Shown here in pieces: positions 5,121 through 36,277 of a DNA stretch of 64,000 nucleotides. The translations under genes and the position numbers were made by a program. The notes beneath the pieces are model-generated. The model was given only the letters and a program-made list of their open reading frames with translations, was not told the DNA's origin and ran no database searches. The stretch comes from Candidatus Woesearchaeota archaeon (GTDB lineage: Archaea > Nanobdellota > Nanobdellia > Pacearchaeales > GW2011-AR1). Location: assembly GCA_964651965.1 (NCBI GenBank), contig CAZYZS010000006.1, positions 42 through 64,041 on the forward strand. Reading direction: 5' to 3'. The first letter of the stretch is position 1; every line of letters starts with the position of its first letter.

Positions 5121-5807
5121 TTAATAAGTGATTTTACCTAACTTATCTCTTTTATCAGGATGATAGAAGTTTATAAGTTTTTTGTAAACATTTATGTTCT
5201 CTTTCCTTCTAACAAACAACATCCCATATGGGCTATGTTTTTTAATTCTCGGTTTATAAGGGCCATATAAACTGGAGTGAATTCCCAGAAGTTCTAAACT
5301 TTGCTTTATTGATTCTAACCCTAGATAATTGACTGATTTGACTTGTATATATTTATGGGATAAATTAACATAAGCTTCACAATCAAAAAAGCATTTTATC
5401 CATTCTATCAAATGTTTTTTAGGCAATTCTTTGGGAATTGCCCATTTATAATGTCCATACTTGCCAAACGAATAAAGATTTAGGCAGGCGGGCTTATTTT
5501 TTATTTGAACATTAAAGCATCCTCCATAATAGACTATCTTTGGAGAGATATTAAATTCTTTTTCAAACAGATTGACAACTCTTTTTGCAAGAGCTTCATT
5601 ATCCAAGAACACCCTAATTTCATAATGCATATCTTTATTTTTGTCTTCTCTTATAGCTATCCACCCATCTCCGCACAAATACGCATTTATTGCTACCTTT
5701 TCTTTAGAGATAACGTTATTTATTCTTACTTTAGAGTGCTCTTTTTTCCATCTGTTCTCTAATCCAATTTTACTTATCCTTTTGTAGAATTCTGCATCTA
5801 TTTTCAT
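5121..5807 (-). CDS. free-standing LAGLIDADG-type (double-motif) homing-endonuclease-like protein
   Basis: 228 aa. First motif INAYLCGDGWIAI (aa ~40-52) and second motif LIEWIKCFFDCEAYV (aa ~135-149) lie ~95 aa apart, the usual spacing of single-chain LAGLIDADG enzymes. The stop codon (5123-5121) ends 1 nt before tRNA position 1 (5119). Confidence 0.6.
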   Translation of the reverse strand: MKIDAEFYKRISKIGLENRWKKEHSKVRINNVISKEKVAINAYLCGDGWIAIREDKNKDMHYEIRVFLDNEALAKRVVNLFEKEFNISPKIVYYGGCFNVQIKNKPACLNLYSFGKYGHYKWAIPKELPKKHLIEWIKCFFDCEAYVNLSHKYIQVKSVNYLGLESIKQSLELLGIHSSLYGPYKPRIKKHSPYGMLFVRRKENINVYKKLINFYHPDKRDKLGKITY

Positions 5808-5858
5808 AAAAGATTTAACAGACAGAAGTTTATAAGTTTTCCTATAATGCGCAGTACC

Positions 5859-6470
5859 TTAAATCAGTTTTTCAAATTCTTCTGTTATTTGCTTATGTAT
5901 TTCTTCCACTGATTTTGTGCCGTCTATTATAACTATTTTTTCATTTGGAAGATGTTTTAATGTTTCCATGTATTTTTGTCTCACTTTTTCTTGAAATTCT
6001 GTGCTTGCTTCTAGTCTGTGCTTGGTTCTGTTATCTTTATCCATTCTTTCTTGCCCGATTTTTGCAGGAACATCTACAATAAATGTTATGTCTGGAATTG
6101 GCAAGCCATTGTGCATCTCTATTAGCTTGCTTGGCTCTAGGCCTTGTGCAGATTGGTAAGCAATTGTTGATAATTTATACCTGTCAGAAATAACATAATG
6201 ACCTTTTTCTAAGTGAGGCAGAATAATTTCCTGGGTTTGTTCTTTCCTGTCGTTTACAAACAATTCTGCAAGTTTTTCTGATTGCGACTCAGGAGAATCG
6301 TTTGTTTTGAGAAGCTCTCTTATTTCTCTTGCTTTGTAAGGGTTTCGTGTTAAAAGAATATGGTTATATTTGCTTAGTTTAGAAAGATATTCGACAAATT
6401 TAAATATCTGTGTGGATTTTCCGCATCCATCGATTCCTTCAAAAACAATAAACTTTCCTCTTTTGTCCAT
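5859..6470 (-). CDS. tmk: thymidylate kinase
   Basis: KFIVFEGIDGCGKSTQ P-loop, VISDRY motif, ~200 aa length typical of dTMP kinase. Confidence 0.9.
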   Translation of the reverse strand: MDKRGKFIVFEGIDGCGKSTQIFKFVEYLSKLSKYNHILLTRNPYKAREIRELLKTNDSPESQSEKLAELFVNDRKEQTQEIILPHLEKGHYVISDRYKLSTIAYQSAQGLEPSKLIEMHNGLPIPDITFIVDVPAKIGQERMDKDNRTKHRLEASTEFQEKVRQKYMETLKHLPNEKIVIIDGTKSVEEIHKQITEEFEKLI

Positions 6471-11543: not shown

Positions 11544-11598
11544 GTAAAATACAAGAAAAATAGGTTTAAGAATTTTGGGTTTCGCAATTCTCCATAAT

Positions 11599-11606
11599 TT
11601 TATAAA
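11599..11606 (+). promoter_or_regulatory. TATA box TTTATAAA, 22 nt upstream of ATG 11629 (leaderless spacing)
   Basis: Read directly. The same 21-22 nt TATA-to-ATG gap recurs at 15540, 22547, 39221 and 63005. Confidence 0.4.
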
Positions 11607-11628
11607 CTCTATATTCTTTTTCTTATTA

Positions 11629-12429
11629 ATGGTTAAAAAAAAGAAGCAATCACTTGCATGGAGAGCATTTAAACTTCCTTTTATTGGAATTGGAAAGCTG
11701 GCAGCATATACTTATAGGAAGAGCAGGGAGGGAATGAAAAATGCAAAGGAACAAAGAAAGCTTGATAAGTCAGAAGTCTATCGTACAGAGCCTGTTTTTG
11801 AGGAATTTAAAATTATTAAAGAAATAATAGGAGATTATTCTTATACTGAAAAAAGGCTTTTTGAAGATTCTTTAATTGTCTTGATTTTTGGCAAAAGAGG
11901 AAGCGGCAAGAGTGCATTGGGATTTAAATTACTGGAAAATATTCACAGCAGAACAGGAAGGAAATGCTATGCTCTTGATATCCAGCAGGAAAAAATGCCT
12001 GCTTGGATTAAAAGCATAGATGATATCGAAAAAGTGCCTAACGGGGGAGTTATCTTGATTGATGAGGGGGCTATTTCTTTTGGCTCTAGAGACTCTATGT
12101 CATCGAAGAATAAAGAATTAAGCAAGCTGCTTGCTATAGCTAGGCATAAAAATCTTACCTTAATATTTGTAACACAAAATACAGGGCTCATTGATAAAAA
12201 TGTTCTTGCGCTTACTGATACGCTTCTGATAAAAGAAGGAAGCTTGCTTCAGATGGAAATGGAGAGAAAAGAGGTAAGGAAGTTTTATGACAAAGCAAAT
12301 GATTTCCTTAAATTTGTTAAAGGAGACAAAAGAAAATACCTTTACCTTATTGATTCGGATTTTGAAGGCGTTTTAACACATTCTCTTCCAAGCTTTTGGA
12401 CAACTGGGCTGTCTAAGAATCAGGGATAA
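11629..12429 (+). CDS. small P-loop NTPase (Zot / FtsK-HerA-like fold suspected)
   Basis: Track ORF starts at a TTG (11575). I prefer ATG 11629 (MVKKKKQS...) because of the TATA box upstream. Walker A LIFGKRGSGKSALG, Walker B GGVILIDEGA, then AIARHKNLTLIFVTQN (RH...TQ as in small phage/virus assembly ATPases). Confidence 0.6.
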   Translation: MVKKKKQSLAWRAFKLPFIGIGKLAAYTYRKSREGMKNAKEQRKLDKSEVYRTEPVFEEFKIIKEIIGDYSYTEKRLFEDSLIVLIFGKRGSGKSALGFKLLENIHSRTGRKCYALDIQQEKMPAWIKSIDDIEKVPNGGVILIDEGAISFGSRDSMSSKNKELSKLLAIARHKNLTLIFVTQNTGLIDKNVLALTDTLLIKEGSLLQMEMERKEVRKFYDKANDFLKFVKGDKRKYLYLIDSDFEGVLTHSLPSFWTTGLSKNQG

Positions 12430-13848
12430 CTAGTTATTAGATTCCTCTAAATATTTTTCTTTCCAGATTGGCTTTGTTTTTTCTTCTAATTCTTTATCAA
12501 ATTCGTCTAGTGTCTTCTCGTAATCTTTTGATTTCAAAGCTTCTGCTGCAGGGGCATCTTCTGGTTTAGCGTCTTTTGTTAAAATATTATCCTTGAAATT
12601 CTTATAGTGGTCTCTTATTGAACAAGGCATTAGCCAGTTATCAGGGCTATGTATGTGGGATAAGCCATAATCTTCCTGCCATTTTCTCCCGTTTTTGAAG
12701 AATTCTGAATTAAGAGCGTCTGCAAGTTTTTTGCCTTGCTTGTGCAGTTCTAAGATATTGTCAACATAATAGGGAACAAAAACGCATGGCATTATGTTAC
12801 CATTCCAGTCTACATATAAGTAGCCTCCACTTCTTCCATAAGCAATGCATCCATCAGATAAAACTCCGGAATTCCAGAAATCTGCAAGTGCATAGCCTTT
12901 TTCTAACATCTTCTCCCATATTTTATAAAGTTCTACTCGCTGTTCAGGAGTTATCATTAATTCTTTCATGTCTTTTGCCTTTCCTATTGGCATTAGCTGG
13001 AACTCCCACATATAAGAAGCGCCCTGTTCCTCGAATAAAAACTTGTAGAAATTTTCATCTAAAAGCGTATTTATATTTTTGCTTGTTGCAGTTATAGAAA
13101 CGCCAAATGACACGCCTGCTTCTCTTAGGTTTTGGAAGGCTTCAAGAATTTTTTTGTAGATACCTTTTCCTCTTCTTTCATCTGTTTCTTTTTCCCCGCC
13201 TTCTATTGAAATTGCAGGAGTTACATTTCCAAGTTCAGCAAACTTTTTTGCAATTTCTTTTGTTATCAATGTGCTATTAGTGTAAAAAAGGAAAAACATT
13301 TCAGGATATTTTCTCCAGATATCGAATAGAGTTTTGTCTCCATCTTTATATAATAAAGGCTCTCCGCCTGAAATCGTCATAAAACGATTCCCCCATTCGT
13401 TATATACCTCCTCGCAAATCTTATCTACTGTTTCAAAAGGAAGGGTTGGGCAATTTTCATGGGAGGAAGCATAACATCCTTCGCACTTTAAATTGCATTT
13501 TTGCGTAGGAGAAAGAACAATAAAACTAGGAGGGAGTATACCGTACTTTTCTTTGAATTTATCCTTTTTTTCTTTATTTAGGTCTTGGTCTGTAAAACCA
13601 TACTTCACTAAAGTATCCATCACCCTATCAATGAAGTGGTTAGAAACATAACCCTTGTCTAGATTCCTTTTAGTAGATTCTAACAAAGCGACTAAGAAAT
13701 GATATTTTTTTAGCTGAACCGCTTTTGGGGACGTGGTGTTATCTTCTACCACTGCTTTATATATTTTCTTCTTGTAATTTTCTAGCAGGGCATCCCTTCC
13801 TACTTTTGTATGTAACACCTGTTTTAATATAGTTAAATATATTGACAT
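12430..13848 (-). CDS. radical SAM enzyme with C-terminal SPASM/twitch-like Cys-rich domain
   Basis: 472 aa: PTQKCNLKCEGCY (CxxxCxxC), ISGGEPL; C-terminal CIAYGRSGGYLYVDWNGNIMPCVFVP and LMPCSIRDH; ~110-aa helical N-terminal extension. Confidence 0.8.
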   Translation of the reverse strand: MSIYLTILKQVLHTKVGRDALLENYKKKIYKAVVEDNTTSPKAVQLKKYHFLVALLESTKRNLDKGYVSNHFIDRVMDTLVKYGFTDQDLNKEKKDKFKEKYGILPPSFIVLSPTQKCNLKCEGCYASSHENCPTLPFETVDKICEEVYNEWGNRFMTISGGEPLLYKDGDKTLFDIWRKYPEMFFLFYTNSTLITKEIAKKFAELGNVTPAISIEGGEKETDERRGKGIYKKILEAFQNLREAGVSFGVSITATSKNINTLLDENFYKFLFEEQGASYMWEFQLMPIGKAKDMKELMITPEQRVELYKIWEKMLEKGYALADFWNSGVLSDGCIAYGRSGGYLYVDWNGNIMPCVFVPYYVDNILELHKQGKKLADALNSEFFKNGRKWQEDYGLSHIHSPDNWLMPCSIRDHYKNFKDNILTKDAKPEDAPAAEALKSKDYEKTLDEFDKELEEKTKPIWKEKYLEESNN

Positions 13849-14011
13849 ACCTAAAAAGTAAATTATATAGAGTATAAAAATCTTGCTATTTTTGACTGGT
13901 AGAATTTATGTATAATCTGTCTATAATCTATGGATTAAGAAGTTAGGGTGGAGAATAGGGAAAACTTTATAAATTAATGTATATTTTAAGTTATATATAA
14001 AAGAGGAAAAA

Positions 14012-14272
14012 ATGAACTTAAAACCTACTTTGTGGAAAACTATACTGCCTATTGTTATCGGGTTGGTGGTTTTTATTTATTTAGCTGAAAGCTTGGGTTG
14101 TGACGGGAAGTGTTCTTACGGTACAGAGTTTAATATAGGGCTCCTTTTGGCAATAGCCATTTATCTTGTAATCAGCCTCTTCCAGAAAAAGAGGGAGAGG
14201 GGCCTGCCGAAAGAAAATAAAAAAGCAAACAGACCTAAAAGAAGGAAGAAGGCTAAAAAGAGGAAGAGATAA
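14012..14272 (+). CDS. small two-TM hairpin membrane protein with CxxxC loop and Lys/Arg tail (86 aa)
   Basis: AAAGAGG Shine-Dalgarno 6 nt upstream. TM1, loop SLGCDGKCSYG, TM2, tail KKANRPKRRKKAKKRKR. Long ORFs are unlikely by chance in AT-rich DNA. Confidence 0.55.
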   Translation: MNLKPTLWKTILPIVIGLVVFIYLAESLGCDGKCSYGTEFNIGLLLAIAIYLVISLFQKKRERGLPKENKKANRPKRRKKAKKRKR

Positions 14273-14275
14273 ACC

Positions 14276-14530
14276 ATGAACTTTAGACTTACAAAGAAGA
14301 AAACAATAGTATGTATACTATTCTTTATAGTGTCTACATTCTTAATCGATTGGATCATTGTAGCCGGGATGTTATGTGATTGTCCTTTTTCACAATTTTT
14401 GTTTCAGAGCACAATAGCCGGATTAGTATTAACAATCGTATTATTTATACTTTGGAGTTTGGCACAGGAAAATAAGAAAATAAAAAAACAACTTCCAATT
14501 AAATCCAAATCCAAAAAGAGGAAGAAATAA
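14276..14530 (+). CDS. small two-TM hairpin membrane protein with CxC loop and Lys tail (84 aa)
   Basis: Starts 3 nt after the previous stop and ends 2 nt before the gap ATG. Loop MLCDCPF; tail KSKSKKRKK, whose codons AAGAGGAAG form the SD of gap. Confidence 0.55.
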   Translation: MNFRLTKKKTIVCILFFIVSTFLIDWIIVAGMLCDCPFSQFLFQSTIAGLVLTIVLFILWSLAQENKKIKKQLPIKSKSKKRKK

Positions 14531-14532
14531 AC

Positions 14533-15522
14533 ATGAGAGTAGCAATTAACGGTTTGGGAAGGATAGGAAGACCTGTATTGAAATTATGCCTGCAGAACCG
14601 AATTAAGGTGGTGGCAGTTAATGATTTAACAAGCCCGGAGGTTCTTGCTTATTTGTTAAAGTACGATTCTATTTATGGAAGATATAATGAAAAAGTAACT
14701 TATGGAGAGAACTACATTAAAATTGGCAAGAGAAAGATAAGAGTTTATTCTGAAACTGACCCTGAGAAACTTCCGTGGGAGAGACTAAGAGTTGATGCAG
14801 TTGTCGAATCCACTGGAAAGTTTAAGATGAGAGAAGAAGCTTATAAACATATTTTGGCAGGTGCTAAGAAAGTTGTTATTTCTGCGCCTTCTCCAAATCC
14901 GGATGTCACAATTGTTCCCGGAGTTAACGATAAAGATTATAACAACGTGTATGAAATTTTTTCACTTGGTTCATGCACTACTAATTGTTTAGCGCCTGTT
15001 GCAAAGGTGTTGGATGACGAGTTTGGCATAACAAAAGGTTTTATGACAACAGCGCATGCTTATACTAATGACCAGAATATTTTGGATTTGCCGCATAAAA
15101 AACTCAGGAGGACAAGGGCGGCAGCGATTAACATAGTTCCAACAACGAGCGGGGCTACAGAATCGGTTGTTGCAGTTTTGCCTCAGTTAAAAGGAAGATT
15201 AGACGGCTTAGCTCTAAGAGTGCCTGTTGCATGCGGGAGCATAGTAGATTTTGTTTGCCAACTTCAAAATCCTGCCACTATCAAAAGAATAAACAATGCC
15301 TTTGAACGCGTTTCTAGGAAAGAGATGAAAGGAATTCTTCAATATAACGAAGACGAAATAGTTAGTTCAGATATTATAGGAAATCCCCATTCTTCTATTT
15401 TTGATTCGACATTAACACAAGTAATTGGAAAAGAGGGGCATTTAATCAAAGTACTTTCTTGGTATGACAACGAGTTCGGATATAGCAACAGAATGGTTGA
15501 TTTCTTGAAAAAACTTAGGTAA
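14533..15522 (+). CDS. gap: glyceraldehyde-3-phosphate dehydrogenase, type I (bacterial/eukaryotic class)
   Basis: MRVAINGLGRIGR, active site SLGSCTTNCLAP, WYDNEFGYSNR C-terminus. Confidence 0.9.
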   Translation: MRVAINGLGRIGRPVLKLCLQNRIKVVAVNDLTSPEVLAYLLKYDSIYGRYNEKVTYGENYIKIGKRKIRVYSETDPEKLPWERLRVDAVVESTGKFKMREEAYKHILAGAKKVVISAPSPNPDVTIVPGVNDKDYNNVYEIFSLGSCTTNCLAPVAKVLDDEFGITKGFMTTAHAYTNDQNILDLPHKKLRRTRAAAINIVPTTSGATESVVAVLPQLKGRLDGLALRVPVACGSIVDFVCQLQNPATIKRINNAFERVSRKEMKGILQYNEDEIVSSDIIGNPHSSIFDSTLTQVIGKEGHLIKVLSWYDNEFGYSNRMVDFLKKLR

Positions 15523-15535
15523 AAAAACAATAAGG
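15522..15535 (+). repeat. 14-nt intergenic motif AAAAAACAATAAGG, copy 1
   Basis: Identical 14-mer at 15991-16004. Both copies sit just after a stop codon and just upstream of a TATA box. Confidence 0.6.
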
Positions 15536-15539
15536 AACA

Positions 15540-15547
15540 TTTATATA
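15540..15547 (+). promoter_or_regulatory. TATA box TTTATATA, 21 nt upstream of ATG 15569
   Basis: Read directly; leaderless spacing. Confidence 0.4.
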
Positions 15548-15568
15548 ATTTATAGGAACCATATTCTT

Positions 15569-15988
15569 ATGGATACTTTTGAAAGAAAGTACGGGATTAA
15601 GGAAGATGAAAAAACCAAAAGGTTTCATGAAAGCAGGAGAATGTTTTGTATTTATCAAGGCAAATTAGTTATTGCAGAGCCTAACTTACCTTATTCACAT
15701 GCTGTTTGGTTTCAAAAGAATGGGTGGATGTCTGAGCAGGAGGATAACCTTATGAACGAGATTGTTAGGGGATGTATAGACAAGGAAGGAAACGTTTATT
15801 TTTATGCGGGATATGACTTCCAAATAAATAATCAGATTGAACTTATTCTTTTCAGTCACTTGAGCGAATTAGTTGAAATACTTAAATTAAGGCCAGATGC
15901 CAAAATATTTGGAGGTTCGATAAACCAAAAAGCAGGTGCAAAATGGCTTCCTAGAAAAGAGTACGGGAAGATTAAAGATAATTTATGA
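15569..15988 (+). CDS. hypothetical protein (139 aa)
   Basis: ORF plus promoter spacing; no motif I recognise. Confidence 0.5.
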   Translation: MDTFERKYGIKEDEKTKRFHESRRMFCIYQGKLVIAEPNLPYSHAVWFQKNGWMSEQEDNLMNEIVRGCIDKEGNVYFYAGYDFQINNQIELILFSHLSELVEILKLRPDAKIFGGSINQKAGAKWLPRKEYGKIKDNL

Positions 15989-15990
15989 AT

Positions 15991-16004
15991 AAAAAACAAT
16001 AAGG
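15991..16004 (+). repeat. 14-nt intergenic motif AAAAAACAATAAGG, copy 2
   Basis: Directly abuts TTTATAAT (16005-16012) upstream of trxB. Confidence 0.6.
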
Positions 16005-16054
16005 TTTATAATATATCTTTTATTCCTTATTTTATAAAAAGGTGAAGATAAAAA

Positions 16055-16972
16055 ATGCTATATGATTTAATAATTATTGGTGGCGGTCCTGCAGGCATGA
16101 CTGCTGCAATTTATGCGGCAAGGCAGAAAATAAAGTTCATGATTATAAGCATGGATGTTGGCGGGCAGATGGGCTGGAGTTCTAAAGTTGAAAATTATCC
16201 AGGAGTTCCTGATAAAAGCGGGATTGCGCTCGTTGAGAGATTCCAGAAGCATATGCAGGATTATAAAATAAAAATAAAACAGGAAGAAATCTTAAAATTA
16301 GAGAAGAATAAAAATATATGCGTTGTAAGGACAAAGAAAAATTTTTATGAGAGCAAAGCTGTGATAATTGCTGCTGGGAAAAAGCCTAGAAAATTAAATG
16401 TGCCAGGAGAAGATAAATTTACAGGGTTGGGAGTTAATTACTGTGCTGTATGCGATGCTCCGCTTTTTAAGGATAAAATCTGTGCGGTAGTTGGAGGAGG
16501 AAATTCAGGAATGGACGCTGCTTTGTTCCTTTCAAAATATGCAAAAAAGGTTTATATTTTGGAATATTTGCCCAAGTTAGGTGGAGATAACTTTCTAAGA
16601 GAAAAAGTCCTTAATGAGAAAAAGATAACAGTAATTACAGGAGCTAAGATGAAGGAGATTATTGGAAATAAAATTGTTGAAAAAATAAAATATGAGAAAG
16701 AGGGAAACGAAAATGAATTGCCTATCGATGGAGTTTTTGTTGAAATAGGGCTTATAAGCCAGTATGATTTTACAGATGTCCAGAAAAACAAGTGGGGGGA
16801 GATAATGATATTTAGAAGCACTATAAGCCATGAGGAGAATATGACTGACATACCTGGAATTTTTGCAGCAGGCGACTGTACGGACATCCCTTCTAAACAA
16901 ATAATCGTAGCAGCAGGCGAAGGTGCGAAAGCAGCTCTCGCTTCTTTTAACTATATTAACAGGTGGAAATAA
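16055..16972 (+). CDS. trxB: thioredoxin-disulfide reductase (low-Mr NTR type)
   Basis: YDLIIIGGGPAGMTAAIYAAR (FAD), redox CAVC in NYCAVCDAPLF, VVGGGNSGMD (NADPH), AAGDC. Confidence 0.9.
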   Translation: MLYDLIIIGGGPAGMTAAIYAARQKIKFMIISMDVGGQMGWSSKVENYPGVPDKSGIALVERFQKHMQDYKIKIKQEEILKLEKNKNICVVRTKKNFYESKAVIIAAGKKPRKLNVPGEDKFTGLGVNYCAVCDAPLFKDKICAVVGGGNSGMDAALFLSKYAKKVYILEYLPKLGGDNFLREKVLNEKKITVITGAKMKEIIGNKIVEKIKYEKEGNENELPIDGVFVEIGLISQYDFTDVQKNKWGEIMIFRSTISHEENMTDIPGIFAAGDCTDIPSKQIIVAAGEGAKAALASFNYINRWK

Positions 16973-16981
16973 TTTGATAAG

Positions 16982-17632
16982 ATGGACTTGTCTATTTTCT
17001 CAAGTATAACAGAATATCTAAAGGTTTTAATAACCTTTAATCTGTATCTTGGAGCCTTTTTAGCGGCCATTATAGAGACTATTTTATTTTCGTTAGTTCC
17101 AGGCGAGGTTGTAATGCCTTTGGCAGGTTACTTGGCCTCTTTGAACAATTATGGATATCTGGGTTTGCTCGGTGTTACTTTGTGTGCTACATTAGGGGCT
17201 ACAATTGGAGCAGTGCTTATTTATTACATTTCCTTAAAGCTCGGCAGGCCGGTTATTTTAAAATACGGAAAATATTTTTTTATAACTGAAGAGAAGCTTT
17301 CTAGTGCAGAAAAATGGTTTGAGAAATATGGCACAAAGGCTGTTTTTTTCGGAAGAATGGCCCCTGCAATTAGAGAGTTGGTCTCCATACCTGCAGGCTT
17401 TTCAAAAATGGATCTTAAGAAATATATTTTCTACACTTTTCTCGGAACTTTTTTATGGACTCTTTTTTTAATTTCTCTTGGATTTTTTCTTGGAGCTTAT
17501 GTTGAAACATTAAACCTATCTGGGATATTTGAGAAAACTGGTGTTTTTATAATTCTGCTCATTGCAGTTTATATTATTTTTAAAATACTTAACAAGAAAT
17601 TTAAAAAGAAACAGCTAAGTGCCATCCAATAG
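16982..17632 (+). CDS. DedA/SNARE-associated family membrane protein
   Basis: 216 aa, multi-TM, FFGRMAPAIRELVSIPAG signature. Confidence 0.8.
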   Translation: MDLSIFSSITEYLKVLITFNLYLGAFLAAIIETILFSLVPGEVVMPLAGYLASLNNYGYLGLLGVTLCATLGATIGAVLIYYISLKLGRPVILKYGKYFFITEEKLSSAEKWFEKYGTKAVFFGRMAPAIRELVSIPAGFSKMDLKKYIFYTFLGTFLWTLFLISLGFFLGAYVETLNLSGIFEKTGVFIILLIAVYIIFKILNKKFKKKQLSAIQ

Positions 17633-17667
17633 GTTTAAAAGGCATTTTTTCTTAAATTGTAATAAAG

Positions 17668-17985
17668 ATGGTGAATAAAGAAACAAATAAGGTCTGGAAT
17701 TTTTTTAAGCCAAGCATATTGAAAGTAGTTATAACTGTAGTTATATTCTTATTTTTTGTGCCTTTTGTCAGTATAGACTCAGGAGTTAGATGTGTTACAG
17801 AGCCGTGTGAATCTGAATCTACTGTTTCTCTTCTTATATATATTATTTCGGTGTTTGAAGGAGAGGTGACTGTTTATGACTTTTTTTATACAAATATTTT
17901 ATTGGGGATTGTTGCTTCCTATGTTTCGTCCTGCATAGTTGTGGTTTTAGTTGCTTATTTGAAAAATAAAGCCAAAGATATTTAA
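17668..17985 (+). CDS. small two-TM membrane protein with CxxxxC loop (105 aa)
   Basis: TM1, loop GVRCVTEPCESES, TM2, tail KNKAKDI. The stop lies 1 nt before the pgk ATG. Confidence 0.5.
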   Translation: MVNKETNKVWNFFKPSILKVVITVVIFLFFVPFVSIDSGVRCVTEPCESESTVSLLIYIISVFEGEVTVYDFFYTNILLGIVASYVSSCIVVVLVAYLKNKAKDI

Positions 17986-17986
17986 T

Positions 17987-19126
17987 ATGAGAACTTTGTC
18001 TGATTTTGATTTCAGGGGAAAGATAGTTTTGCTAAGGGCAGATTTGAATTCTGATGTTGTTGGAGGGAAGGTTTTGATGAGTGAGAGAATAAAAGAGTCT
18101 GCTGTAACAATAAACGAGCTAAAACAGAAAAGAGCTAAAGTTGTTGTGATAGCACATCAGGGAAGAAAAGGAGATTCTGATTTCACTTCTTTAAAGCAAC
18201 ATTCTGCACTTTTGAATAAGTTTACAAAAATAAAATTTGTTGATGAGGTTAGTGGTGAAAAAGCAAGGAAGGCCATAAAAGGGATGAAAGAGGGAGAAGC
18301 CATCCTTTTAGAAAATATTAGAAATATAGACGATGAGCTTAAGCCCGAAAAAGGAGAAGAAAATGAAATAGTCAAATTCTTTGTCCCGCTTGTTAATGCC
18401 TATGTTAATGATTCTTTTTCTGTCTGTCATAGAGAGCAGGCTTCAATTACTCTGCTGCCAAAATACATCCCTTGTTTTGCAGGGAGGCTGCTTGAAAAAG
18501 AAGTCAATGCCTTGAAGAAAATAAAAATGAAAGAATGTTTGTACATATTAGGGGGGGCAAAGCCAGAAGACAACTTAAAATTGTTGCGTGGAAATAAGGT
18601 CTTAGCTTGCGGGCTGTTTGGGCAATTGTGCTTAATTGCGATGGGAAAAGGTTTAGGAGCCCAGAATAAATATCTCGAGGGGCAGATTAAAGATTTTGAT
18701 AGAGTGGTAGAGGAGCTAAAAGGAAAACTAAAAAATGTGCAAACTCCTATTGATTTTGCAGTTAAGAAAAATGGAAAAAGAGAGGAAATCTTACTGGAGA
18801 ATTTTCCTAGTGAATATGAAATTTTTGATATAGGCGAGAAAACCCAGAAAAAATACATTGAACAGATTAAAAAGGCAAAATCCATTTATATGAAAGGCCC
18901 TGCTGGATTTTGTGGAGAGGAGCCGTTTTCAAAGGGCACCATTGCCATTTTAAAGGCAGTTTCAGAGAGCAAGGGCTTTACATTGATAGGAGGAGGACAT
19001 CTTTCTGACGCAATTGAAATGTCTAAAATACCGAAGGAAGAGTTTGGGCATATAAGCCTTTCTGGAGGTGCATTATTAAGCTACGTCGCAGGGGAGAAAT
19101 TGCCAGGGTTAGAAGCATTGGGATGA
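17987..19126 (+). CDS. pgk: phosphoglycerate kinase (archaeal type)
   Basis: GKIVLLRADLNSDV, VVIAHQGRKG, GGAK, GGGHLS motifs; 379 aa. Confidence 0.85.
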   Translation: MRTLSDFDFRGKIVLLRADLNSDVVGGKVLMSERIKESAVTINELKQKRAKVVVIAHQGRKGDSDFTSLKQHSALLNKFTKIKFVDEVSGEKARKAIKGMKEGEAILLENIRNIDDELKPEKGEENEIVKFFVPLVNAYVNDSFSVCHREQASITLLPKYIPCFAGRLLEKEVNALKKIKMKECLYILGGAKPEDNLKLLRGNKVLACGLFGQLCLIAMGKGLGAQNKYLEGQIKDFDRVVEELKGKLKNVQTPIDFAVKKNGKREEILLENFPSEYEIFDIGEKTQKKYIEQIKKAKSIYMKGPAGFCGEEPFSKGTIAILKAVSESKGFTLIGGGHLSDAIEMSKIPKEEFGHISLSGGALLSYVAGEKLPGLEALG

Positions 19127-19183
19127 CTTAATGATAAACTTTAAAACCCCTTTTTTCTTTATATATAAACAAAAGAGGAGAAA

Positions 19184-19447
19184 ATGAGGAAGGTTAAAAC
19201 AGAAAAGATTAAGGTAAGTTTCTTTAGGCTTACTAAAGTAAAGCTTTTACTCATAATTGTCTTTTTCGCGCTGATTGTGTATCTAGCAGGGATTCCTGTG
19301 AGGATTGTTCCAGAAGTTACCCTTTCTATAAAAAGCCTGCCTTCAGTGATTATCCTTATTTTACTGGAGCTTATTATAAGCTATATAATAGCCTGCATTG
19401 TTGTTTTTTTATTTCATAAGCACTGGAGAAGACAAAGAAAAATTTAA
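19184..19447 (+). CDS. small two-TM hairpin membrane protein with basic tail (87 aa)
   Basis: AGAGGAG SD upstream; two hydrophobic helices; tail HKHWRRQRKI. The stop lies 6 nt before the next ATG. Confidence 0.5.
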   Translation: MRKVKTEKIKVSFFRLTKVKLLLIIVFFALIVYLAGIPVRIVPEVTLSIKSLPSVIILILLELIISYIIACIVVFLFHKHWRRQRKI

Positions 19448-19453
19448 GGTAAG

Positions 19454-20392
19454 ATGGAACTCTGCAATTGGATACTAGGATTTCCTGAAAGAATCAGGGA
19501 CTCGTACGATATAAGCGTATGTAAGTTGAAAAGGGTATTTGATAATATTGTCTTTATCGGCATGGGCGGAAGCTATATCGCTGGATTGACTTTTAAAAGC
19601 ATGTATCAGGAAGAAATGAAAATGCCTATTGAGGTAAGGCATTCTGTGAATTATACCAATAGCCATACTCTTTATGTTCTTGTGAGCTATTCTGGAAATG
19701 CAGCAGAAGTTCTGCAGGCACTTGAAAAACTGAAAAAAGTGCATAGCGATAATATTCTAGTTATAACTTCAGGAGGAAAACTCTTGAGAGAGGCAAGAAA
19801 AAGAAAAATAGGATGCATAAAGGTAAAGCCTGGGCTTCATCAAAGATTTACTTTTGCCGAGTTGTTTTTTCCTATTGTAAAAGTTTTTGAGAAAGCAGGC
19901 TACTTGGAGAGTAAGAGAAAGCAAGTTCATCAAATTGTAAAGACACTACAAGAAAGTGCAGATAGGTTGGACAAAAATGCCAGGCTTCTAGCTGGAAAAA
20001 TTAGGGAAGATACCCCTATTTTTTACGCATCTGAATATTTTTATCCTGTAGCATACAGGCTTCAGACCTCTATGGAAGAAGACGCAAAAATAATCTGTCA
20101 TGCTAACCAGATACCTGAGATGTTTCACAATGAACTGGAAGCTTTGCCTGCCAGTTATTTTATTCCTATACTGATTATTGATAGGAAAGAAACAAGAGAG
20201 TACAAAAGGAGGATAAAATTCTTCAAGAAGCATGCTAGGTTTTTTTATGAGCTTGGCGGAGAAAAGTACAGCAGAGAAGAAAGAATGTTCCTTTTGTTTT
20301 ATTTTGCTGATTTTTTAGGATATTATCTTGCAGAATTAAAAGACAGCGATTTTGGAGATACTCCGATATCCGATACAATTAAAAAATATTAA
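19454..20392 (+). CDS. SIS-domain bifunctional phosphoglucose/phosphomannose isomerase-like protein
   Basis: FIGMGGSYIAG and VLVSYSGNAAEVL SIS motifs; ~310 aa, as in crenarchaeal-type PGI/PMI. Confidence 0.7.
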   Translation: MELCNWILGFPERIRDSYDISVCKLKRVFDNIVFIGMGGSYIAGLTFKSMYQEEMKMPIEVRHSVNYTNSHTLYVLVSYSGNAAEVLQALEKLKKVHSDNILVITSGGKLLREARKRKIGCIKVKPGLHQRFTFAELFFPIVKVFEKAGYLESKRKQVHQIVKTLQESADRLDKNARLLAGKIREDTPIFYASEYFYPVAYRLQTSMEEDAKIICHANQIPEMFHNELEALPASYFIPILIIDRKETREYKRRIKFFKKHARFFYELGGEKYSREERMFLLFYFADFLGYYLAELKDSDFGDTPISDTIKKY

Positions 20393-20471: not shown

Positions 20472-21605
20472 ATGGCTGAAGAAAAAATAGAAGAAATACA
20501 TAACTTGACCGATAAAGCCTACGAAAGAGCAGTGGAAGTTATAAATCAGTGCTCTAGTGAATATGGACTTTTTGCTTCTGGAGGCAAAAAAGGATATAAA
20601 GGAGTTTGGAGCAGAGATAGTTTTATAACTTTTCTTGGGGCAAGCCTTGTAAAAGATAGGGATTTCAAGAAGACTTTCAAGAAAAGCCTGGAAATTCTTG
20701 GAGACTATCAAAGTAAAAAAGGACAGATACCTAATGCTGTTTTAAATTTTGACAGAAAAACTCCGCAAGTTGACTATTTGTCAATTGATTCCAGCTTGTG
20801 GTTTATAATCGGACATTATATCTATAAAAAAAGATACAAAGATGAGGCGGTGTTCCATAAATACAAGGAGCATATAGATAATGCATTAACTTGGCTTTCT
20901 TATCAGGATATTAGCGAGGATATAATGCTGGACCAGTTGCCTACTACGGACTGGCAGGATGCATTTCCGCAAAGATACGGGCAGACAATAAATACCCAGG
21001 CTCTTTATTATTATGTTTTAAAGCTAGTCGGAAAGAAAGAACTTGCAAAAAAACTGAAGTTTAATGTTAACCGGAAAAAAGGGCTTAGATTATGGAACGG
21101 AGAACATTACTGGGCTTACAGATGGAAAAATCATAATAAATACAAGGAAATAGGAGATTGGTTTGACTCGCTTGGCAATCTACTGGCAATTGTTTTCGGG
21201 CTTGCTTCTAAGGGCATGTCGGAAAAAATACTCGCTTATATAAAAAGCCAGAGGATAGACTATCCTTTCCCAGTTAAGTCAATACATCCTGTTATCACAA
21301 AAAGAAGCGAGTACTGGGAAGACTATTATATGGATTGCGAGGCTGGAAAGCCCCATCATTATTTAAACGGGGGAATTTGGCCGTATATTGGAGGGTTTTA
21401 TGTTCTGGCTTTAATTAAGATGAAGAAATTTGAGGAAGCTAAAGAGCAGCTGGATAAACTTGCAGAGTCTAACTTAAGGGGGAATACTTTTCCAGAATGG
21501 ATTGACCCTATTAGATGGAAAACTCATGGAAGATTCCAGGCATGGAGTGCAGGGCTTTATATCTTAGCCCATCAGTCACTGAAAGCAAAAAAAGTGCTAA
21601 TATAA
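20472..21605 (+). CDS. (alpha/alpha)6-barrel glycoside hydrolase-like protein (GDE_C / GH100-like)
   Basis: GYKGVWSRDSFITFLGA, TTDWQDAFP, GGIWPYIGGFY; the family assignment is approximate. Confidence 0.55.
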   Translation: MAEEKIEEIHNLTDKAYERAVEVINQCSSEYGLFASGGKKGYKGVWSRDSFITFLGASLVKDRDFKKTFKKSLEILGDYQSKKGQIPNAVLNFDRKTPQVDYLSIDSSLWFIIGHYIYKKRYKDEAVFHKYKEHIDNALTWLSYQDISEDIMLDQLPTTDWQDAFPQRYGQTINTQALYYYVLKLVGKKELAKKLKFNVNRKKGLRLWNGEHYWAYRWKNHNKYKEIGDWFDSLGNLLAIVFGLASKGMSEKILAYIKSQRIDYPFPVKSIHPVITKRSEYWEDYYMDCEAGKPHHYLNGGIWPYIGGFYVLALIKMKKFEEAKEQLDKLAESNLRGNTFPEWIDPIRWKTHGRFQAWSAGLYILAHQSLKAKKVLI

Positions 21606-28562: not shown

Positions 28563-28820
28563 ATGGGAAAGATAACTACAGGAGGAATTGTTACAACTTC
28601 TATAATCAGCGCGTTCACAATAGCTGCTGCTTTGATATGGAAAGATGTTATAGATGGCGTGATAAAACTTATTTTTCCTGCAGACCAGCTTCTACTCAAG
28701 TTTATTGCAGCTATCTTAGCTACCATTCTGGTTGTTGTATTCATCTATATTATACTAATGGCTGAATCTGAGACTAAAATTGTTTTGAGAAAATTTAAAT
28801 TGGGCAAGAGGAAAAAATGA
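28563..28820 (+). CDS. small two-TM membrane protein with basic tail (85 aa)
   Basis: AAGAGGA SD upstream; two helices; tail RKFKLGKRKK. ATGA overlap with the pfkB-family start; the tail codons AAGAGGAAA are the SD of the next gene. Confidence 0.5.
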   Translation: MGKITTGGIVTTSIISAFTIAAALIWKDVIDGVIKLIFPADQLLLKFIAAILATILVVVFIYIILMAESETKIVLRKFKLGKRKK

Positions 28821-29734
28821 AATTTGATGTTGTAACCTTTGGTTCTGCAGTTAAGGATGTTTTTGTAGTAACTGATTTAGCTGACAGGGGAAAGTTCATT
28901 GCTTATCCTATTGGAGCCAAGATTCTTATTAAAGAGCTAAGATATGACATCGGTGGAGGGGGAACAAACACCGCAGTTGCATTTTCTAGACTGGGGCTTA
29001 AGACCGGATTCATTGGTAAGGTTGGAAAGGACGGGACCGGGTATGAAATTTTAGATATGCTTAAGAGAGAAAATGTGAAATTCCTTGGCAAGATGGAGAA
29101 AAAAGGGCTTACTGGATTTTCTATTATCCTAGACAGCCAGGAGAACGATAGGACGATTTTAACTTATAAAGGCATTAATGATACAATTAGCATGAGAGAC
29201 ATAAAGTTAAGAAAATTAAAAACTAAATGGCTATATCTTTCTTCTTTGCTTGGGGAGAGTCTTGAAACTCAAATTACCCTTGCGAGAGCGTTAAAAAAAC
29301 GCGGCGTTAAAATAGTATTTAATCCGAGTTCTTATCTTACCGAGAGAAAAGAGTTAATAGAGCACTTATTGATGGTTTCTGATATACTCGTTCTGAATAA
29401 AGAAGAGTCGCAAATGCTTACAAGCAGAAGGGATCTGCTTAAGGGGCTGCATGACCTGACTGGCGGGATTGTTGTAATAACCGACAGGGATAAAAAAATT
29501 TCTGCATTTGATGGAGCAAGAAAATATTATTTAGCGCCTAATAAGATAAAAGTTAGAGAAAGGACGGGGGCTGGAGACGCTTTTGCTTCAGGTTTTGTTG
29601 CAGGGCAGATAGTTGGAATGAATATGGAGGAAAGTCTAAAACTGGGGTTAAGGGAGTCTGAATCAGTTATAAAATATTTTGGAGCTAAAAATAACCTTTT
29701 AAGGATAAACCTCCGTGAAGTTTGGAAGGGTTAA
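28817..29734 (+). CDS. PfkB/ribokinase-family sugar (phosphate) kinase
   Basis: GGGGTNTA, C-terminal TGAGDAFASGF. Position just upstream of fba suggests a phosphofructokinase-like role (inference). Confidence 0.85.
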   Translation: MKFDVVTFGSAVKDVFVVTDLADRGKFIAYPIGAKILIKELRYDIGGGGTNTAVAFSRLGLKTGFIGKVGKDGTGYEILDMLKRENVKFLGKMEKKGLTGFSIILDSQENDRTILTYKGINDTISMRDIKLRKLKTKWLYLSSLLGESLETQITLARALKKRGVKIVFNPSSYLTERKELIEHLLMVSDILVLNKEESQMLTSRRDLLKGLHDLTGGIVVITDRDKKISAFDGARKYYLAPNKIKVRERTGAGDAFASGFVAGQIVGMNMEESLKLGLRESESVIKYFGAKNNLLRINLREVWKG

Positions 29735-29782: not shown

Positions 29783-30538
29783 ATGAAGCGAGTCAATTTA
29801 AAAGATATAACGCGCCAAGGCAAAGCAATTTTCTTGGCTTATGACCAGGGCTTAGAGCACGGTCCGAGCGATTTTAACGATAGAAATGTTGATCCTCTGT
29901 ATATAATTGACTTGGCTAAAAGAGGGGGATTTACTTCTCTTGTTCTTCAAAAAGGAATTGTTGAAAAGTATATAGAGGAGATAAGAAAATCCGGTGTGCC
30001 TTTGCTAATGAAGCTCAATGGCAAGACTGATTTGTTTAGGGGAGACCCTATTTCAAGCCAGATATGCACTGTCAAAGAGGCTATTGACTTTGGAGCAAAA
30101 GCAGTAGGGTTTACAATCTATATTGGCAGCCAGCATGAAGGGAAGATGATTGAGCAATTCGAAGCAATTGAAAGAGAGGCTCACGCTAAGGGCCTGCCGG
30201 TTATAGCCTGGATTTATGCAAGAGGTAGCTCAGTAAGAGTAAGGTCGAGCAGCGAACTTATGGCTTATGCCACTAGAACTGGTTTGGAGACTGGAGCAGA
30301 CATTGTCAAGATCAAGTACGATGGGGATGCAAAAGGGCTTAAATGGGCAATAAAATCTGCTGGCAGGACAAAAGTAGTAATCGCTGGTGGGATGAAAAAA
30401 GATGAAGGCCTATTCTTAACCCAAGTTAAAGAGATTATGGATGCAGGAGCAATTGGGCTTGCTGTTGGCAGAAATATATGGCAGCATAAAGATCCTATGT
30501 TGATTACAAGAAAGGTAAAGAAGATGTTATGGGGTTAG
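29783..30538 (+). CDS. fba: class I (archaeal DhnA/FbaB-type) fructose-bisphosphate aldolase
   Basis: 251 aa TIM barrel: FLAYDQGLEHGP, LMKLNGKT, ADIVKIKY (Schiff-base Lys region), VIAGG, AVGRNIWQ. Confidence 0.8.
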   Translation: MKRVNLKDITRQGKAIFLAYDQGLEHGPSDFNDRNVDPLYIIDLAKRGGFTSLVLQKGIVEKYIEEIRKSGVPLLMKLNGKTDLFRGDPISSQICTVKEAIDFGAKAVGFTIYIGSQHEGKMIEQFEAIEREAHAKGLPVIAWIYARGSSVRVRSSSELMAYATRTGLETGADIVKIKYDGDAKGLKWAIKSAGRTKVVIAGGMKKDEGLFLTQVKEIMDAGAIGLAVGRNIWQHKDPMLITRKVKKMLWG

Positions 30539-30539
30539 A

Positions 30540-30764: not shown

Positions 30765-30767
30765 AAA

Positions 30768-31403: not shown

Positions 31404-31408
31404 GGAAG

Positions 31409-36264: not shown

Positions 36265-36277
36265 GTTATTTTTTATT

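What the first reader, a model, noticed from the sequence alone, without database searches (positions are those of the whole stretch)
14012..19456. Small two-TM hairpin proteins translationally coupled upstream of gap, pgk and pgi
Each glycolytic gene in this block is immediately preceded by a 84-105-aa ORF of the same architecture: basic N-terminus, TM1, short loop, TM2, Lys/Arg tail. ORFs 14012-14272 and 14276-14530 end 2 nt before gap. ORF 17668-17985 ends 1 nt before pgk. ORF 19184-19447 ends 6 nt before the PGI/PMI gene. Three of the loops carry a Cys pair (CDGKC, CDC, CVTEPC). ORFs of this length are improbable by chance in DNA this AT-rich, and the leading ones have their own AAGAGG Shine-Dalgarno. 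I know of no described pairing of core glycolytic enzymes with dedicated tiny membrane proteins. They could tether enzymes to the membrane, act as regulatory upstream cistrons, or form an unrecognised family.
Basis: partly seen in the sequence, partly recalled or inferred. Interest (0 to 1): 0.68.

Follow-up and report, generated by a model that had tools for sequence, protein, structure and literature searches.

The report
New small archaeal hairpin-membrane-protein family
The four tiny genes in front of the sugar-breakdown genes are real and belong to one undescribed family of small two-helix membrane proteins of Pacearchaeota (DPANN archaea), but their position next to glycolytic genes holds only in a narrow group of relatives and is probably gene-order history, not a dedicated partnership.

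Summary
ORFs 14012-14272, 14276-14530, 17668-17985 and 19184-19447 exist, each has two predicted transmembrane helices, and they end 1-6 nt before the next gene (gap, pgk, a SIS-type PGI). They are real genes: orthologues keep frame and length, and dN/dS is 0.09-0.28.

All four are paralogues of one family with no Pfam, NCBIfam, PHROG, PADLOC or PDB match. An exhaustive profile search finds 509 clusters, almost all 60-125 aa. Named members are Pacearchaeota.

The family has a conserved N-terminus (MNFKPTxWK), TM1, a variable and usually even-numbered-Cys loop, TM2 ending YIIWSLxQKK, and a basic tail. The topology is N-in/C-in with the loop outside; one member carries an fn3 domain in the loop.

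The glycolysis link is clade-specific. Member-pgk and member-PGI-operon adjacency persist in close relatives. However, copy number before gap varies from 0 to 4, and one relative has the pgk-type gene away from pgk. Seven more distant members lie by rRNA, rpS10, NUDIX/HicAB, DisA, TctA, a cupin isomerase or other membrane genes. Ten related DPANN loci have gap, trxB or another gene abutting pgk with no member.

Verdict: an undescribed family, with dedicated pairing unsupported.

The parts
14012..14272 (+). Family member 1 (86 aa, 'gap-type A'): MNLKPTLWK, TM1, loop CDGKC, TM2 ...YLVISLFQKK, 30-aa Lys/Arg tail. First gene of the co-directional block.
   Evidence: ORF. Orthologues P0019/P0020 and L081 5546-5818 at 77% aa identity, dN/dS 0.15. 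Family HMM E 6.8e-21; leave-one-out E 5.8e-9.
14276..14530 (+). Family member 2 (84 aa, 'gap-type B'): MNFRLTKKK, TM1, loop CDC, TM2 ...LFILWSLAQENKK, basic tail. Ends 2 nt before gap.
   Evidence: Orthologue P0018 at 81%; L083 4141-4407 at 46%. HMM E 3.3e-23; leave-one-out E 1.8e-8. AF2 hairpin H7-31/H38-71, pLDDT 71.
14533..15522 (+). gap: class-I (bacterial-type) glyceraldehyde-3-phosphate dehydrogenase.
   Evidence: Pfam Gp_dh_N 2.3e-34 and Gp_dh_C 2.1e-59. Best genome hits are mostly bacterial.
17668..17985 (+). Family member 3 (105 aa, 'pgk-type'): ...FFKPSILK, TM1 ...FVPFVSIDSGVRCVTEPCES loop, short helix, TM2 ...ASYVSSCIVV, KNKAKDI. Ends 1 nt before pgk.
   Evidence: Five homologues of 103-105 aa at 59-84% identity. 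dN/dS 0.09-0.18. Leave-one-out E 4.8e-4. AF2 pLDDT 67.
17987..19126 (+). pgk: phosphoglycerate kinase.
   Evidence: Pfam PGK 4.1e-88.
19184..19447 (+). Family member 4 (87 aa, 'pgi-type'): ...FFRLTKVK, TM1, Cys-free loop, TM2 ELIISYIIACIVVFLF, HKHWRRQRKI. Ends 6 nt before PGI and has its own AAGAGG.
   Evidence: Homologues P0028-P0030, P0021 and P0068. dN/dS 0.17-0.28. Leave-one-out E 1.5e-4. Shares the 8-mer ELIISYII with P0025.
19454..20392 (+). SIS-type phosphoglucose (PGI/PMI-like) isomerase, followed by the GDE_C/GH100-like hydrolase at 20472-21605.
   Evidence: Pfam bact-PGI_C 8.6e-25, SIS 4.6e-9, GDE_C 1.1e-12.
14001..14006 (+). AAGAGG Shine-Dalgarno-like motif ahead of 14012, within the 163-nt AT-rich divergent intergenic region 13849-14011.
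   Evidence: Sequence.
14258..14263 (+). AAGAGG inside the Lys/Arg-tail codons of member 1, 12 nt before the start of member 2. The tail coding sequence doubles as an SD.
   Evidence: Junction listing. The same motif sits in the tails of L081 and L110 members.
14516..14521 (+). AAGAGG inside the tail codons of member 2, 11 nt before the gap start.
19173..19178 (+). AAGAGG ahead of 19184, preceded by TATATA.
15569..17632 (+). Non-glycolytic genes interleaved in the same co-directional block: 139-aa orphan (15569-15988), thioredoxin-reductase-like flavoprotein (16055-16972), VTT/DedA-type membrane protein (16982-17632).
   Evidence: Pfam. The same set is present in L081, L083 and L110.

Best explanation
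The four ORFs are real protein-coding paralogues of one undescribed family of small membrane proteins found in Pacearchaeota/DPANN archaea. Each folds as a helical hairpin with both ends in the cytoplasm. The conserved parts are the extreme N-terminus (M-N-F-K-P-T-x-W-K) and the cytoplasmic end of TM2 (Y-I-I-W-S-L-x-Q-K-K, plus a polybasic tail). In a hairpin these two parts lie side by side at the inner face of the membrane. The loop faces outward, varies in length and sequence, and is usually stabilised by one or more disulfides. The genes multiply by local duplication of the ORF with its SD. They settle in the very tight gene junctions of a co-directional housekeeping and sugar operon, so they are co-transcribed and translationally coupled with whatever gene follows. 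In the gap-type copies the purine-rich tail codons themselves carry the AAGAGG SD of the next cistron. The neighbourhood with gap, pgk and PGI is therefore inherited gene order of one narrow clade, not an enzyme-specific partnership. The proteins' own job is most likely at the envelope: displaying a variable loop on the cell surface, or organising the membrane, in an episymbiotic archaeon. Shown here: gene reality, family membership, architecture and topology logic, family size, and variability of context. Inferred: surface or envelope function, disulfides, co-transcription, and the absence of an enzyme interaction.
For: Real genes: orthologues keep length and frame. dN/dS is 0.09-0.28, against 0.04-0.10 for the flanking enzymes.

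One family: BLAST single linkage joins 14012, 14276 and 17668 with the L081-L083 paralogues. In leave-one-subfamily-out profiles the window's own four members are recovered at E 5.8e-9 to 4.8e-4 (Z=7759); across all left-out members the range is 2e-12 to 0.11, and P0029 is the one member above 0.011. The full profile gives no other hit below E 0.3 among 7,759 ORFs of 108 loci.

Family size: 509 clusters at E<=1e-3 among 1.84 billion representatives, nearly all full-length and 62-125 aa.

No known family: Pfam, NCBIfam, PHROGs, PADLOC, PDB sequence search and Foldseek all find nothing.

Topology: N-terminus K+R 2.7 versus D+E 0.3; C-terminus 4.7 versus 0.6; loop 1.6 versus 2.3. Of 111 Cys-containing loops, 100 have an even Cys count. 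P0120 has an fn3 domain inserted in the loop (PF00041, 8.8e-6). AF2 models are hairpins.

Conservation is concentrated at the two cytoplasmic ends.

Fluid context: copies before gap number 2 in the window, 4 in L081, 1 in L083 and L110, and 0 in L100. An ~80%-identical duplicate pair in L081 sits before gap and before trxB. The pgk-type gene is not next to pgk in L082/L083. More distant members lie by rRNA-like non-coding DNA, rpS10, NUDIX/HicAB, DisA/GTPase, TctA, a cupin isomerase and other membrane-protein genes. Ten DPANN loci have pgk abutting gap, trxB or another gene with no member.

Tight junctions are general in this block, for example fba->30540 at 1 nt and DUF5654->pfkB at -4 nt. 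The AAGAGG motif sits inside the tail codons.
Against: Within about 72 kb of this genome, all four members lie in the 5.4-kb gap-pgi block, and three directly precede EMP enzymes. The nominal probability is about 2e-3, but this is post hoc and the copies are not independent. The pgk-type member abuts pgk in the window, L081, L092 and L100/L101, down to 65% PGK identity. The pgi-type member heads the PGI/glycoside-hydrolase operon in the window, L081, L082 and L115, down to 66% PGI identity. One distant member (P0024) follows a cupin mannose-6-P-isomerase-like gene. Only about eight distant contexts could be read. There are no expression, localisation or interaction data, and the envelope function is inference only.
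Confidence: 0.6

Rival explanations
1. Functional partnership: subfamily-specific hairpin proteins (pgk-type, pgi-type, gap-type) dock or regulate the enzyme encoded immediately downstream. They would recruit sugar catabolism to the membrane, for example near sugar uptake or the host-contact site, with 1:1 synthesis ensured by translational coupling.
For: Tight coupling at 1-6 nt. Member-pgk adjacency is kept in 4-5 genomes, and the pgi-type member heads the PGI operon in 4 lineages, while surrounding genes changed. All four members found in ~72 kb are in this block. The pgk-type protein is almost as conserved as PGK between the window and L100 (60% versus 65%). P0024 lies beside a cupin sugar isomerase.
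Against: The conserved residues are membrane-embedded or juxtamembrane, and the cytoplasmic parts are only 9-20 residues plus a low-complexity basic tail. In L082/L083 the pgk-type gene is separated from pgk by two genes, one on the other strand. The pgk-type members P0059 and P0074 and the intermediate P0025 are nowhere near pgk. Copies before gap vary from 0 to 4, and a recent duplicate sits before trxB. Ten related loci run the same enzymes without any member. In L115 a glycoside hydrolase lies between the member and PGI.
Confidence: 0.15
2. Upstream-cistron device: the ORFs matter mainly as translated leaders that deliver ribosomes, and in the gap-type copies the SD sequence, to the downstream enzyme gene. 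The peptide itself would be secondary.
For: Stop-to-start distances range from -4 to +6 nt. There is no free-standing SD before gap, because AAGAGG lies inside the tail codons. There is no SD-like motif before pgk, which implies termination-reinitiation.
Against: Purifying selection acts over the whole protein, and protein-level motifs are conserved across 509 clusters. Stand-alone members have no downstream co-directional gene. In relatives pgk is equally tightly coupled to trxB or gap, so no special leader is needed.
Confidence: 0.1
3. Holin-like or toxin-like small membrane proteins of a mobile or selfish element: two TM helices, N-in/C-in, a highly basic C-terminus, and an ability to multiply.
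For: The architecture resembles class II holins (my own knowledge). Tandem multiplication and patchy distribution are seen.
Against: No consistent PHROG or PADLOC match: only four single-member hits at E 0.005-0.01. Two degenerate motif scans of IMG/VR contigs found nothing. There are no lysis, antitoxin or integrase neighbours. The genes are embedded in housekeeping operons under purifying selection.
Confidence: 0.04
4. Spurious ORFs in AT-rich intergenic DNA.
For: None beyond their small size. The collection's NCBI-derived source does not list 19184 or 30540.
Against: Chance expectation is about 0.07 per kb per strand. Frame and length are conserved, dN/dS is below 0.3, and the family profile is specific.
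Confidence: 0.01

Closest known systems
Lineage-specific small hypothetical membrane-protein families of archaea (Meheust et al. 2022, PMC9258230)
   Same: Short, rich in TM helices, lacking Pfam or KEGG annotation, and confined to one archaeal lineage. That paper proposes such proteins are membrane-associated or extracellular and may take part in cell-cell or cell-environment interaction.
   Different: That paper treats such families in bulk. This family, its motifs (MNFKPTxWK ... YIIWSLxQKK), its Cys-loop and its local clustering in a sugar operon were not found in the literature. Motif strings gave 0 papers.
DUF5654 (PF18898), represented in this window by 28563-28820 upstream of pfkB
   Same: A small (85 aa) archaeal membrane protein with a basic tail. 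It overlaps the start of a glycolytic-type kinase gene by 4 nt, and this is conserved in L082.
   Different: It is not homologous to the four ORFs: there is no Pfam hit for them and hhalign probability is 0.7%. It lacks the N-terminal motif and the Cys loop.
Class II holins (two TM helices, N-in/C-in, charged C-terminus)
   Same: Size, hairpin topology and a highly basic C-terminal tail (my own knowledge of holins; topology).
   Different: No PHROG holin match, no phage or endolysin context, housekeeping operon position, and a conserved N-terminal motif not known from holins.
Bacterial small membrane proteins that modulate larger proteins (e.g. SgrT on PtsG, AcrZ, KdpF, MgrB)
   Same: Tiny membrane proteins, often encoded in the operon of the protein they act on (my own knowledge).
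   Different: Those mostly have a single TM helix or none, are under 60 aa, and act on membrane proteins. Here the neighbours are soluble enzymes and the adjacency is not conserved beyond one clade.
FeoB-associated Cys-rich membrane protein (PF12669)
   Same: A small membrane protein with Cys residues. It was the best weak Pfam similarity for one member.
   Different: Scores are far below the gathering cutoff: 10.2 bits versus 27 for 14012, and a best E of 0.0058 in 1 of 23 members.

Membership tests
Undescribed hairpin family defined here (profiles A3/A5) | N-terminal juxtamembrane motif [FL]-[KR]-x-[TS]-x-x-K directly before TM1, with the Lys invariant | tested here: met
   14012 LKPTLWK, 14276 FRLTKKK, 17668 FKPSILK, 19184 FRLTKVK. 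The Lys column is invariant in A3 (23 sequences) and A5 (109 sequences).
Undescribed hairpin family defined here (profiles A3/A5) | Two TM helices with N-in/C-in orientation and the loop outside | tested here: met
   Hydropathy and charge distribution. AF2 hairpins. An fn3 insertion in the loop of P0120. Even Cys counts in loops. There is no experimental topology.
Undescribed hairpin family defined here (profiles A3/A5) | Conserved aromatic/Ser motif at the cytoplasmic end of TM2 (Y-I-I-W-S-L-x-Q-K-K, or S-Y-x-x-S/A-C in the pgk/pgi types), followed by basic residues | tested here: met
   14012 IYLVISLFQKK; 14276 LFILWSLAQENKK (F in place of Y); 17668 ASYVSSCIVV...KNK; 19184 ISYIIACIVV...HKHWRRQRK.
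Undescribed hairpin family defined here (profiles A3/A5) | Recovered by a profile built without its own subfamily, with a clean background | tested here: met
   Leave-one-out E values: 14012 5.8e-9, 14276 1.8e-8, 17668 4.8e-4, 19184 1.5e-4 (Z=7759). No unrelated ORF scores below 0.3. The pgk and pgi types are the weakest links.
DUF5654 (PF18898) | Pfam score at or above the gathering cutoff (23.8 bits) | tested here: not met
   None of the four ORFs hits it. Only 28563-28820 does (36.3 bits).
FeoB_associated (PF12669) | Pfam score at or above 27 bits | tested here: not met
   10.2 bits for 14012. Best E 0.0058 in 1 of 23 members.
Class II holins | Match to a phage holin family, and a phage or lysis-gene context | tested here: not met
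   No holin PHROG. No IMG/VR hits for the motifs. Neighbours are housekeeping genes.
Archaeosortase/PGF-CTERM-type sorting signals | C-terminal tripartite signal recognised by NCBIfam/TIGRFAM models on a secreted protein | tested here: not met
   No such NCBIfam hit in 23 members. The proteins consist only of the hairpin, and no PGF/PEP motif is seen by eye.
   Adjacency is kept only within one clade. It is broken in L082/L083. It is absent from 10 related loci and from 7 more distant members.

The most novel reading that the evidence does not exclude
The pgk-type and pgi-type subfamilies, and perhaps the gap-type copies, are true membrane docking or regulatory subunits for the soluble sugar-catabolic enzymes encoded right behind them. 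This would give this Pacearchaeota clade a membrane-bound glycolytic assembly, for example at the site of sugar import from a host. The rest of the ~500-cluster family would do the same for other client proteins through the conserved cytoplasmic 'clasp'.
Probability: 0.08. Interest if true: 0.75.

Novelty: new member of a known kind. Interest (0 to 1): 0.36.

Why it matters
DPANN archaea carry many short, unannotated membrane proteins that are thought to underlie their symbiotic lifestyle. This work turns four anonymous ORFs into a defined family with about 500 sequence clusters, clear motifs, a topology model and a working profile. The family can now be annotated and tested. It also removes a tempting over-interpretation: the tight coupling to gap, pgk and PGI reflects compact operon architecture and local gene duplication in one clade, not a general glycolysis-membrane module. 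A side result shows how small genes can nest in tight junctions. Lys/Arg tails are encoded by AAG/AGG/AGA codons that also serve as the Shine-Dalgarno sequence of the next gene.

Tried and rejected
- Pairwise BLAST among the window's small ORFs alone was inconclusive with composition correction. Homology became clear only after adding relatives.
- Pfam, NCBIfam, PHROGs and PADLOC scans of 23 members gave only scattered sub-threshold TM-type hits.
- The PDB profile search gave only rhodopsin-like noise at E>0.3.
- Foldseek of the AF2 hairpin against PDB gave one meaningless hit at E 8. The viral structure library was not searched.
- The search for related loci with the alignment on viral contigs failed because no conserved 7-10-column stretch exists. 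Two degenerate motif scans of IMG/VR gave 0 hits.
- GTDB genome scan with GAPDH: the enzyme is bacterial-type, so hits were mostly bacteria and only three DPANN loci were useful.
- 28563, 30540 and 61784 were tested as remote members and rejected.
- The literature had no hit for the motif strings and nothing on small membrane proteins paired with glycolysis in Pacearchaeota.
- The sigma-70 promoter/terminator scan was not run, because it does not cover archaeal promoters.
- AF-multimer with the enzymes was not possible with the tools.

Full report
**1. Observation**

The four ORFs are present exactly as described: 14012-14272 (86 aa), 14276-14530 (84 aa), 17668-17985 (105 aa) and 19184-19447 (87 aa). 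All are on the + strand and start with ATG.
- Their stop codons lie 3, 2, 1 and 6 nt before the next start codon.
- The genes that follow the last three are a class-I GAPDH, PGK and a SIS/bact-PGI_C isomerase (Pfam).
- Each small protein has a basic N-terminus, two hydrophobic helices, a short loop and a basic tail.
- The Cys pairs CDGKC, CDC and CVTEPC are there; 19184 has none.
- AAGAGG precedes 14012 and 19184.
- In shuffled sequence of this composition, ORFs of >=84 aa occur at about 0.07 per kb per strand, so four in about 1.1 kb of one strand is not chance.
- The window has 32-42% G+C and no tRNA or Rfam hit.

**2. The ORFs are real genes**

The exact proteins are singletons at 90% identity, but relatives exist.
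- 17668 has five homologues of 103-105 aa at 59-84% identity. One is annotated from Candidatus Pacearchaeota archaeon RBG_13_36_9.
- 19184 has three homologues of 80 aa at 65-84% identity.
- 14012 and 14276 have orthologues in the same genomes.
- Codon-level comparison with loci fetched through PGK gives dN/dS of 0.09-0.28 for the small ORFs and 0.04-0.10 for gap, pgk, trxB and pfkB, with dS near 1 or above.
- They are therefore under purifying selection, roughly two to four times more relaxed than the enzymes.

**3. One family**

BLAST single linkage with composition correction joins 14012, 14276 and 17668 with paralogues in L081-L083. Alignments A1-A3 show three shared features:
- an N-terminal [FL]-[KR]-x-[TS]-x-x-K motif;
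- a conserved Tyr near the end of TM2;
- a basic tail.

P0025 bridges the subtypes: it begins with FKPT and carries ELIISYII, an 8-mer identical to 19184.

A profile of A3 hits only family members among 7,759 ORFs from 108 loci, including three L081 paralogues that were not in the training set. The next best ORF scores E 0.31. When a profile is built without a subfamily, the window's own member of that subfamily is still recovered: 14012 at 5.8e-9, 14276 at 1.8e-8, 17668 at 4.8e-4 and 19184 at 1.5e-4. All left-out members score at E 0.011 or better except P0029 at 0.11.

28563 is DUF5654, and hhalign probabilities for 30540, 28563 and 61784 are below 6%.

**4. Size and status of the family**

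The word-indexed search found only about 20 relatives. The exhaustive profile search of 1.84 billion representatives found 509 clusters at E<=1e-3, of which 15 are at <=1e-10. Almost all are full-length matches in proteins of 62-125 aa.
- Named members are 'Candidatus Pacearchaeota archaeon' or 'archaeon' hypothetical proteins.
- No member matches Pfam, NCBIfam, PHROGs or PADLOC above noise.
- The PDB sequence search and Foldseek find nothing.
- The motif strings occur in no searchable paper.
- The general phenomenon is described: lineage-specific archaeal hypothetical proteins are short and rich in TM helices (PMC9258230).

**5. Anatomy and topology**

In 109 type-1 members the information content peaks at two places:
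- M1-N2-F3-K4-P5-T6-x-W8-K9-x-I11-x-S13;
- Y-I-I-W-S-L-I-Q-K-K at the end of TM2.

The loop is variable except for a C...C-P motif.

Across 134 two-TM members:

| Region | Mean K+R | Mean D+E |
|---|---|---|
| N-terminus | 2.7 | 0.3 |
| Loop | 1.6 | 2.3 |
| C-terminus | 4.7 | 0.6 |

This charge pattern follows the positive-inside rule and points to an N-in/C-in topology.

Loop Cys counts across those members are 0 (23), 1 (7), 2 (71), 4 (12), 5 (4), 6 (14) and 8 (3). The even bias is what disulfide pairs outside the cell would produce. One member, P0120, carries an fn3 domain within the loop (PF00041, 26.3 bits), which again places the loop outside.

AF2 gives hairpins. For 14276 the helices are 7-31 and 38-71 (pLDDT 71). 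For 17668 they are 17-35, 55-64 and 71-104 (pLDDT 67).

A few proteins are tandem fusions of two or three units (P0046, P0061, P0167).

The pgk-type subfamily has a conserved loop, FVPF..D.G[IV]RC[IV]..PC.S.

**6. Genomic context**

All loci below were scanned with the family profile.

*Close relatives*

| Locus | Relation to the window | What is there |
|---|---|---|
| L081 | PGK 86-87% identical | Four overlapping members before gap. A fifth before trxB is a recent duplicate of the fourth (~80% nt identity). The pgk-type member sits before pgk and the pgi-type member before PGI. |
| L082/L083 | PGK 83% | One member plus an unrelated 2-TM ORF before gap. The pgk-type gene is followed by a convergent gene and another gene before pgk. 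The pgi-type member sits before PGI. |
| L110 (RBG_13_36_9) | close relative | One member before gap. The pgk-type member is at the contig end. |
| L092 | partial PGK, 85% over residues 1-240 | pgk-type member 1 nt before pgk. |
| L100/L101 | PGK 65% | No member before gap. pgk-type member 1 nt before pgk. |
| L115 | PGI 66% | pgi-type member, then a glycoside hydrolase, then PGI, GDE_C and GH130. |

*Related DPANN loci without members.* In ten loci pgk abuts gap, trxB or another gene and no member is present. These are L084-L089, L091 and L093 (PGK 62-75% identical), plus L001 and L074.

*More distant members*

| Member | Neighbours |
|---|---|
| P0027 | A long stretch with only short spurious ORFs. 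I read this as rRNA-like from the ORF pattern only; no Rfam check was run on it. |
| P0025 | Convergent with rpS10. |
| P0024 | Between a cupin mannose-6-P-isomerase-like gene and a truncated gene. |
| P0026 | Paired with a second member around a DUF4190-like membrane protein. |
| P0059 | Stand-alone, beside NUDIX and HicAB genes. |
| P0074 | After a DisA-like gene, convergent with a GTPase. |
| P0033 | Beside TctA. |

*Within this genome.* In about 72 kb (the window plus L111), the only four members are those in the gap-PGI block. The nominal probability of that clustering is about 2e-3. This figure is post hoc, and tandem duplicates are not independent events.

**7. Coupling**

Tight junctions are the rule in this block and its relatives: fba->30540 at 1 nt, DUF5654->pfkB at -4 nt, and trxB or gap->pgk overlapping in relatives.

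In the gap-type members the last Lys/Arg codons (...AAG AGG AAG AGA TAA) contain AAGAGG 11-12 nt before the next ATG. The same motif stands before the free-standing starts of 14012, 19184, pfkB and tpi. The basic tail and the SD of the next cistron are therefore encoded by the same bases. No such motif precedes pgk, which is 1 nt from the stop codon, so termination-reinitiation is the likely mode there (inference).

**8. Interpretation**

- Shown: the genes are real; all four belong to one undescribed family; the hairpin architecture has conserved cytoplasmic ends and a variable outer loop; context is fluid.
- Inferred: the loops are surface-exposed and disulfide-bonded; the function is related to the envelope; the genes hitch-hike in a constitutively used operon; the link with glycolytic enzymes is historical.
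- The partnership hypothesis keeps some weight, about 0.15. The pgk-type and pgi-type adjacencies survive to about 65% enzyme identity, and all local copies sit in the sugar block.
- It fails the test of conservation across independent lineages, and it could not be tested physically.

**9. Verdict**

It is of moderate interest.

Noticed in passing
window 14245-14275 and 14505-14532; also L081 junctions 5520-5546, 5790-5815, 6125-6153, 6405-6434: The Lys/Arg tails of the gap-type small proteins are encoded by AAG/AGG/AGA codons that contain AAGAGG 7-12 nt before the next start codon. The same motif precedes free-standing starts. One stretch thus appears to serve as both protein tail and Shine-Dalgarno sequence.
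   Followed up: partly
window 28563-28820, 28817-29734: A DUF5654 membrane protein (85 aa) overlaps the start of a pfkB-family sugar kinase by 4 nt. The pair is conserved in L082 (11386-11658 / 11655-12572), but the DUF5654 gene is absent before pfkB in L086 and L087.
   Followed up: partly
window 29783-32035: Class-I (DeoC-type) aldolase, a 74-aa orphan 2-TM protein (30540-30764), a DUF998 5-TM protein (30768-31403) and TIM are packed 1-5 nt apart. The orphan after fba is conserved in L082, where the contig ends before the position of DUF998 and TIM. This is a second case of membrane genes interleaved with glycolytic genes, and it is unrelated to the family.
   Followed up: partly
L081 6153-6437 and 7764-8075: A recent duplicate pair of family members (~80% nt identity). 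One copy sits before gap and the other before trxB. Similarity runs from the SD/start codon through the coding sequence and fades in the Lys/Arg tail, before the stop codon.
   Followed up: yes
window 14533-15522: The GAPDH is of the bacterial class-I type. Its best genome hits (49-57% identity) are mostly bacteria, with only a few DPANN archaea among them.
   Followed up: no
window 11575-12429: A Zot/nSTAND3-like P-loop NTPase with a basic N-terminus is conserved just upstream of the gap block in L081, L083, L100 and L110. Its function is unknown.
   Followed up: no
window 34972-37029 (- strand): NiFe-hydrogenase large-subunit-like and Oxidored_q6 small-subunit-like genes have an 87-aa MtN3/PQ-loop (half-SWEET-like) membrane protein between them. 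Oxidored_q6 followed by MtN3/PQ-loop also recurs on the contig of family member P0024.
   Followed up: no
window 5121-5807 (- strand): A free-standing LAGLIDADG_3-domain ORF (228 aa) lies between a thymidylate-kinase-like gene and small ORFs, close to rpS10. It may be a homing-endonuclease remnant.
   Followed up: no
protein P0120: A family member with an fn3 domain inserted between TM1 and TM2. P0046, P0061 and P0167 are tandem fusions of two or three hairpin units.
   Followed up: partly
window 42454-43598: A cupin mannose-6-P-isomerase-like gene overlaps a ROK-family kinase by 4 nt. On P0024's contig a family member sits directly after the homologous cupin gene.
   Followed up: no
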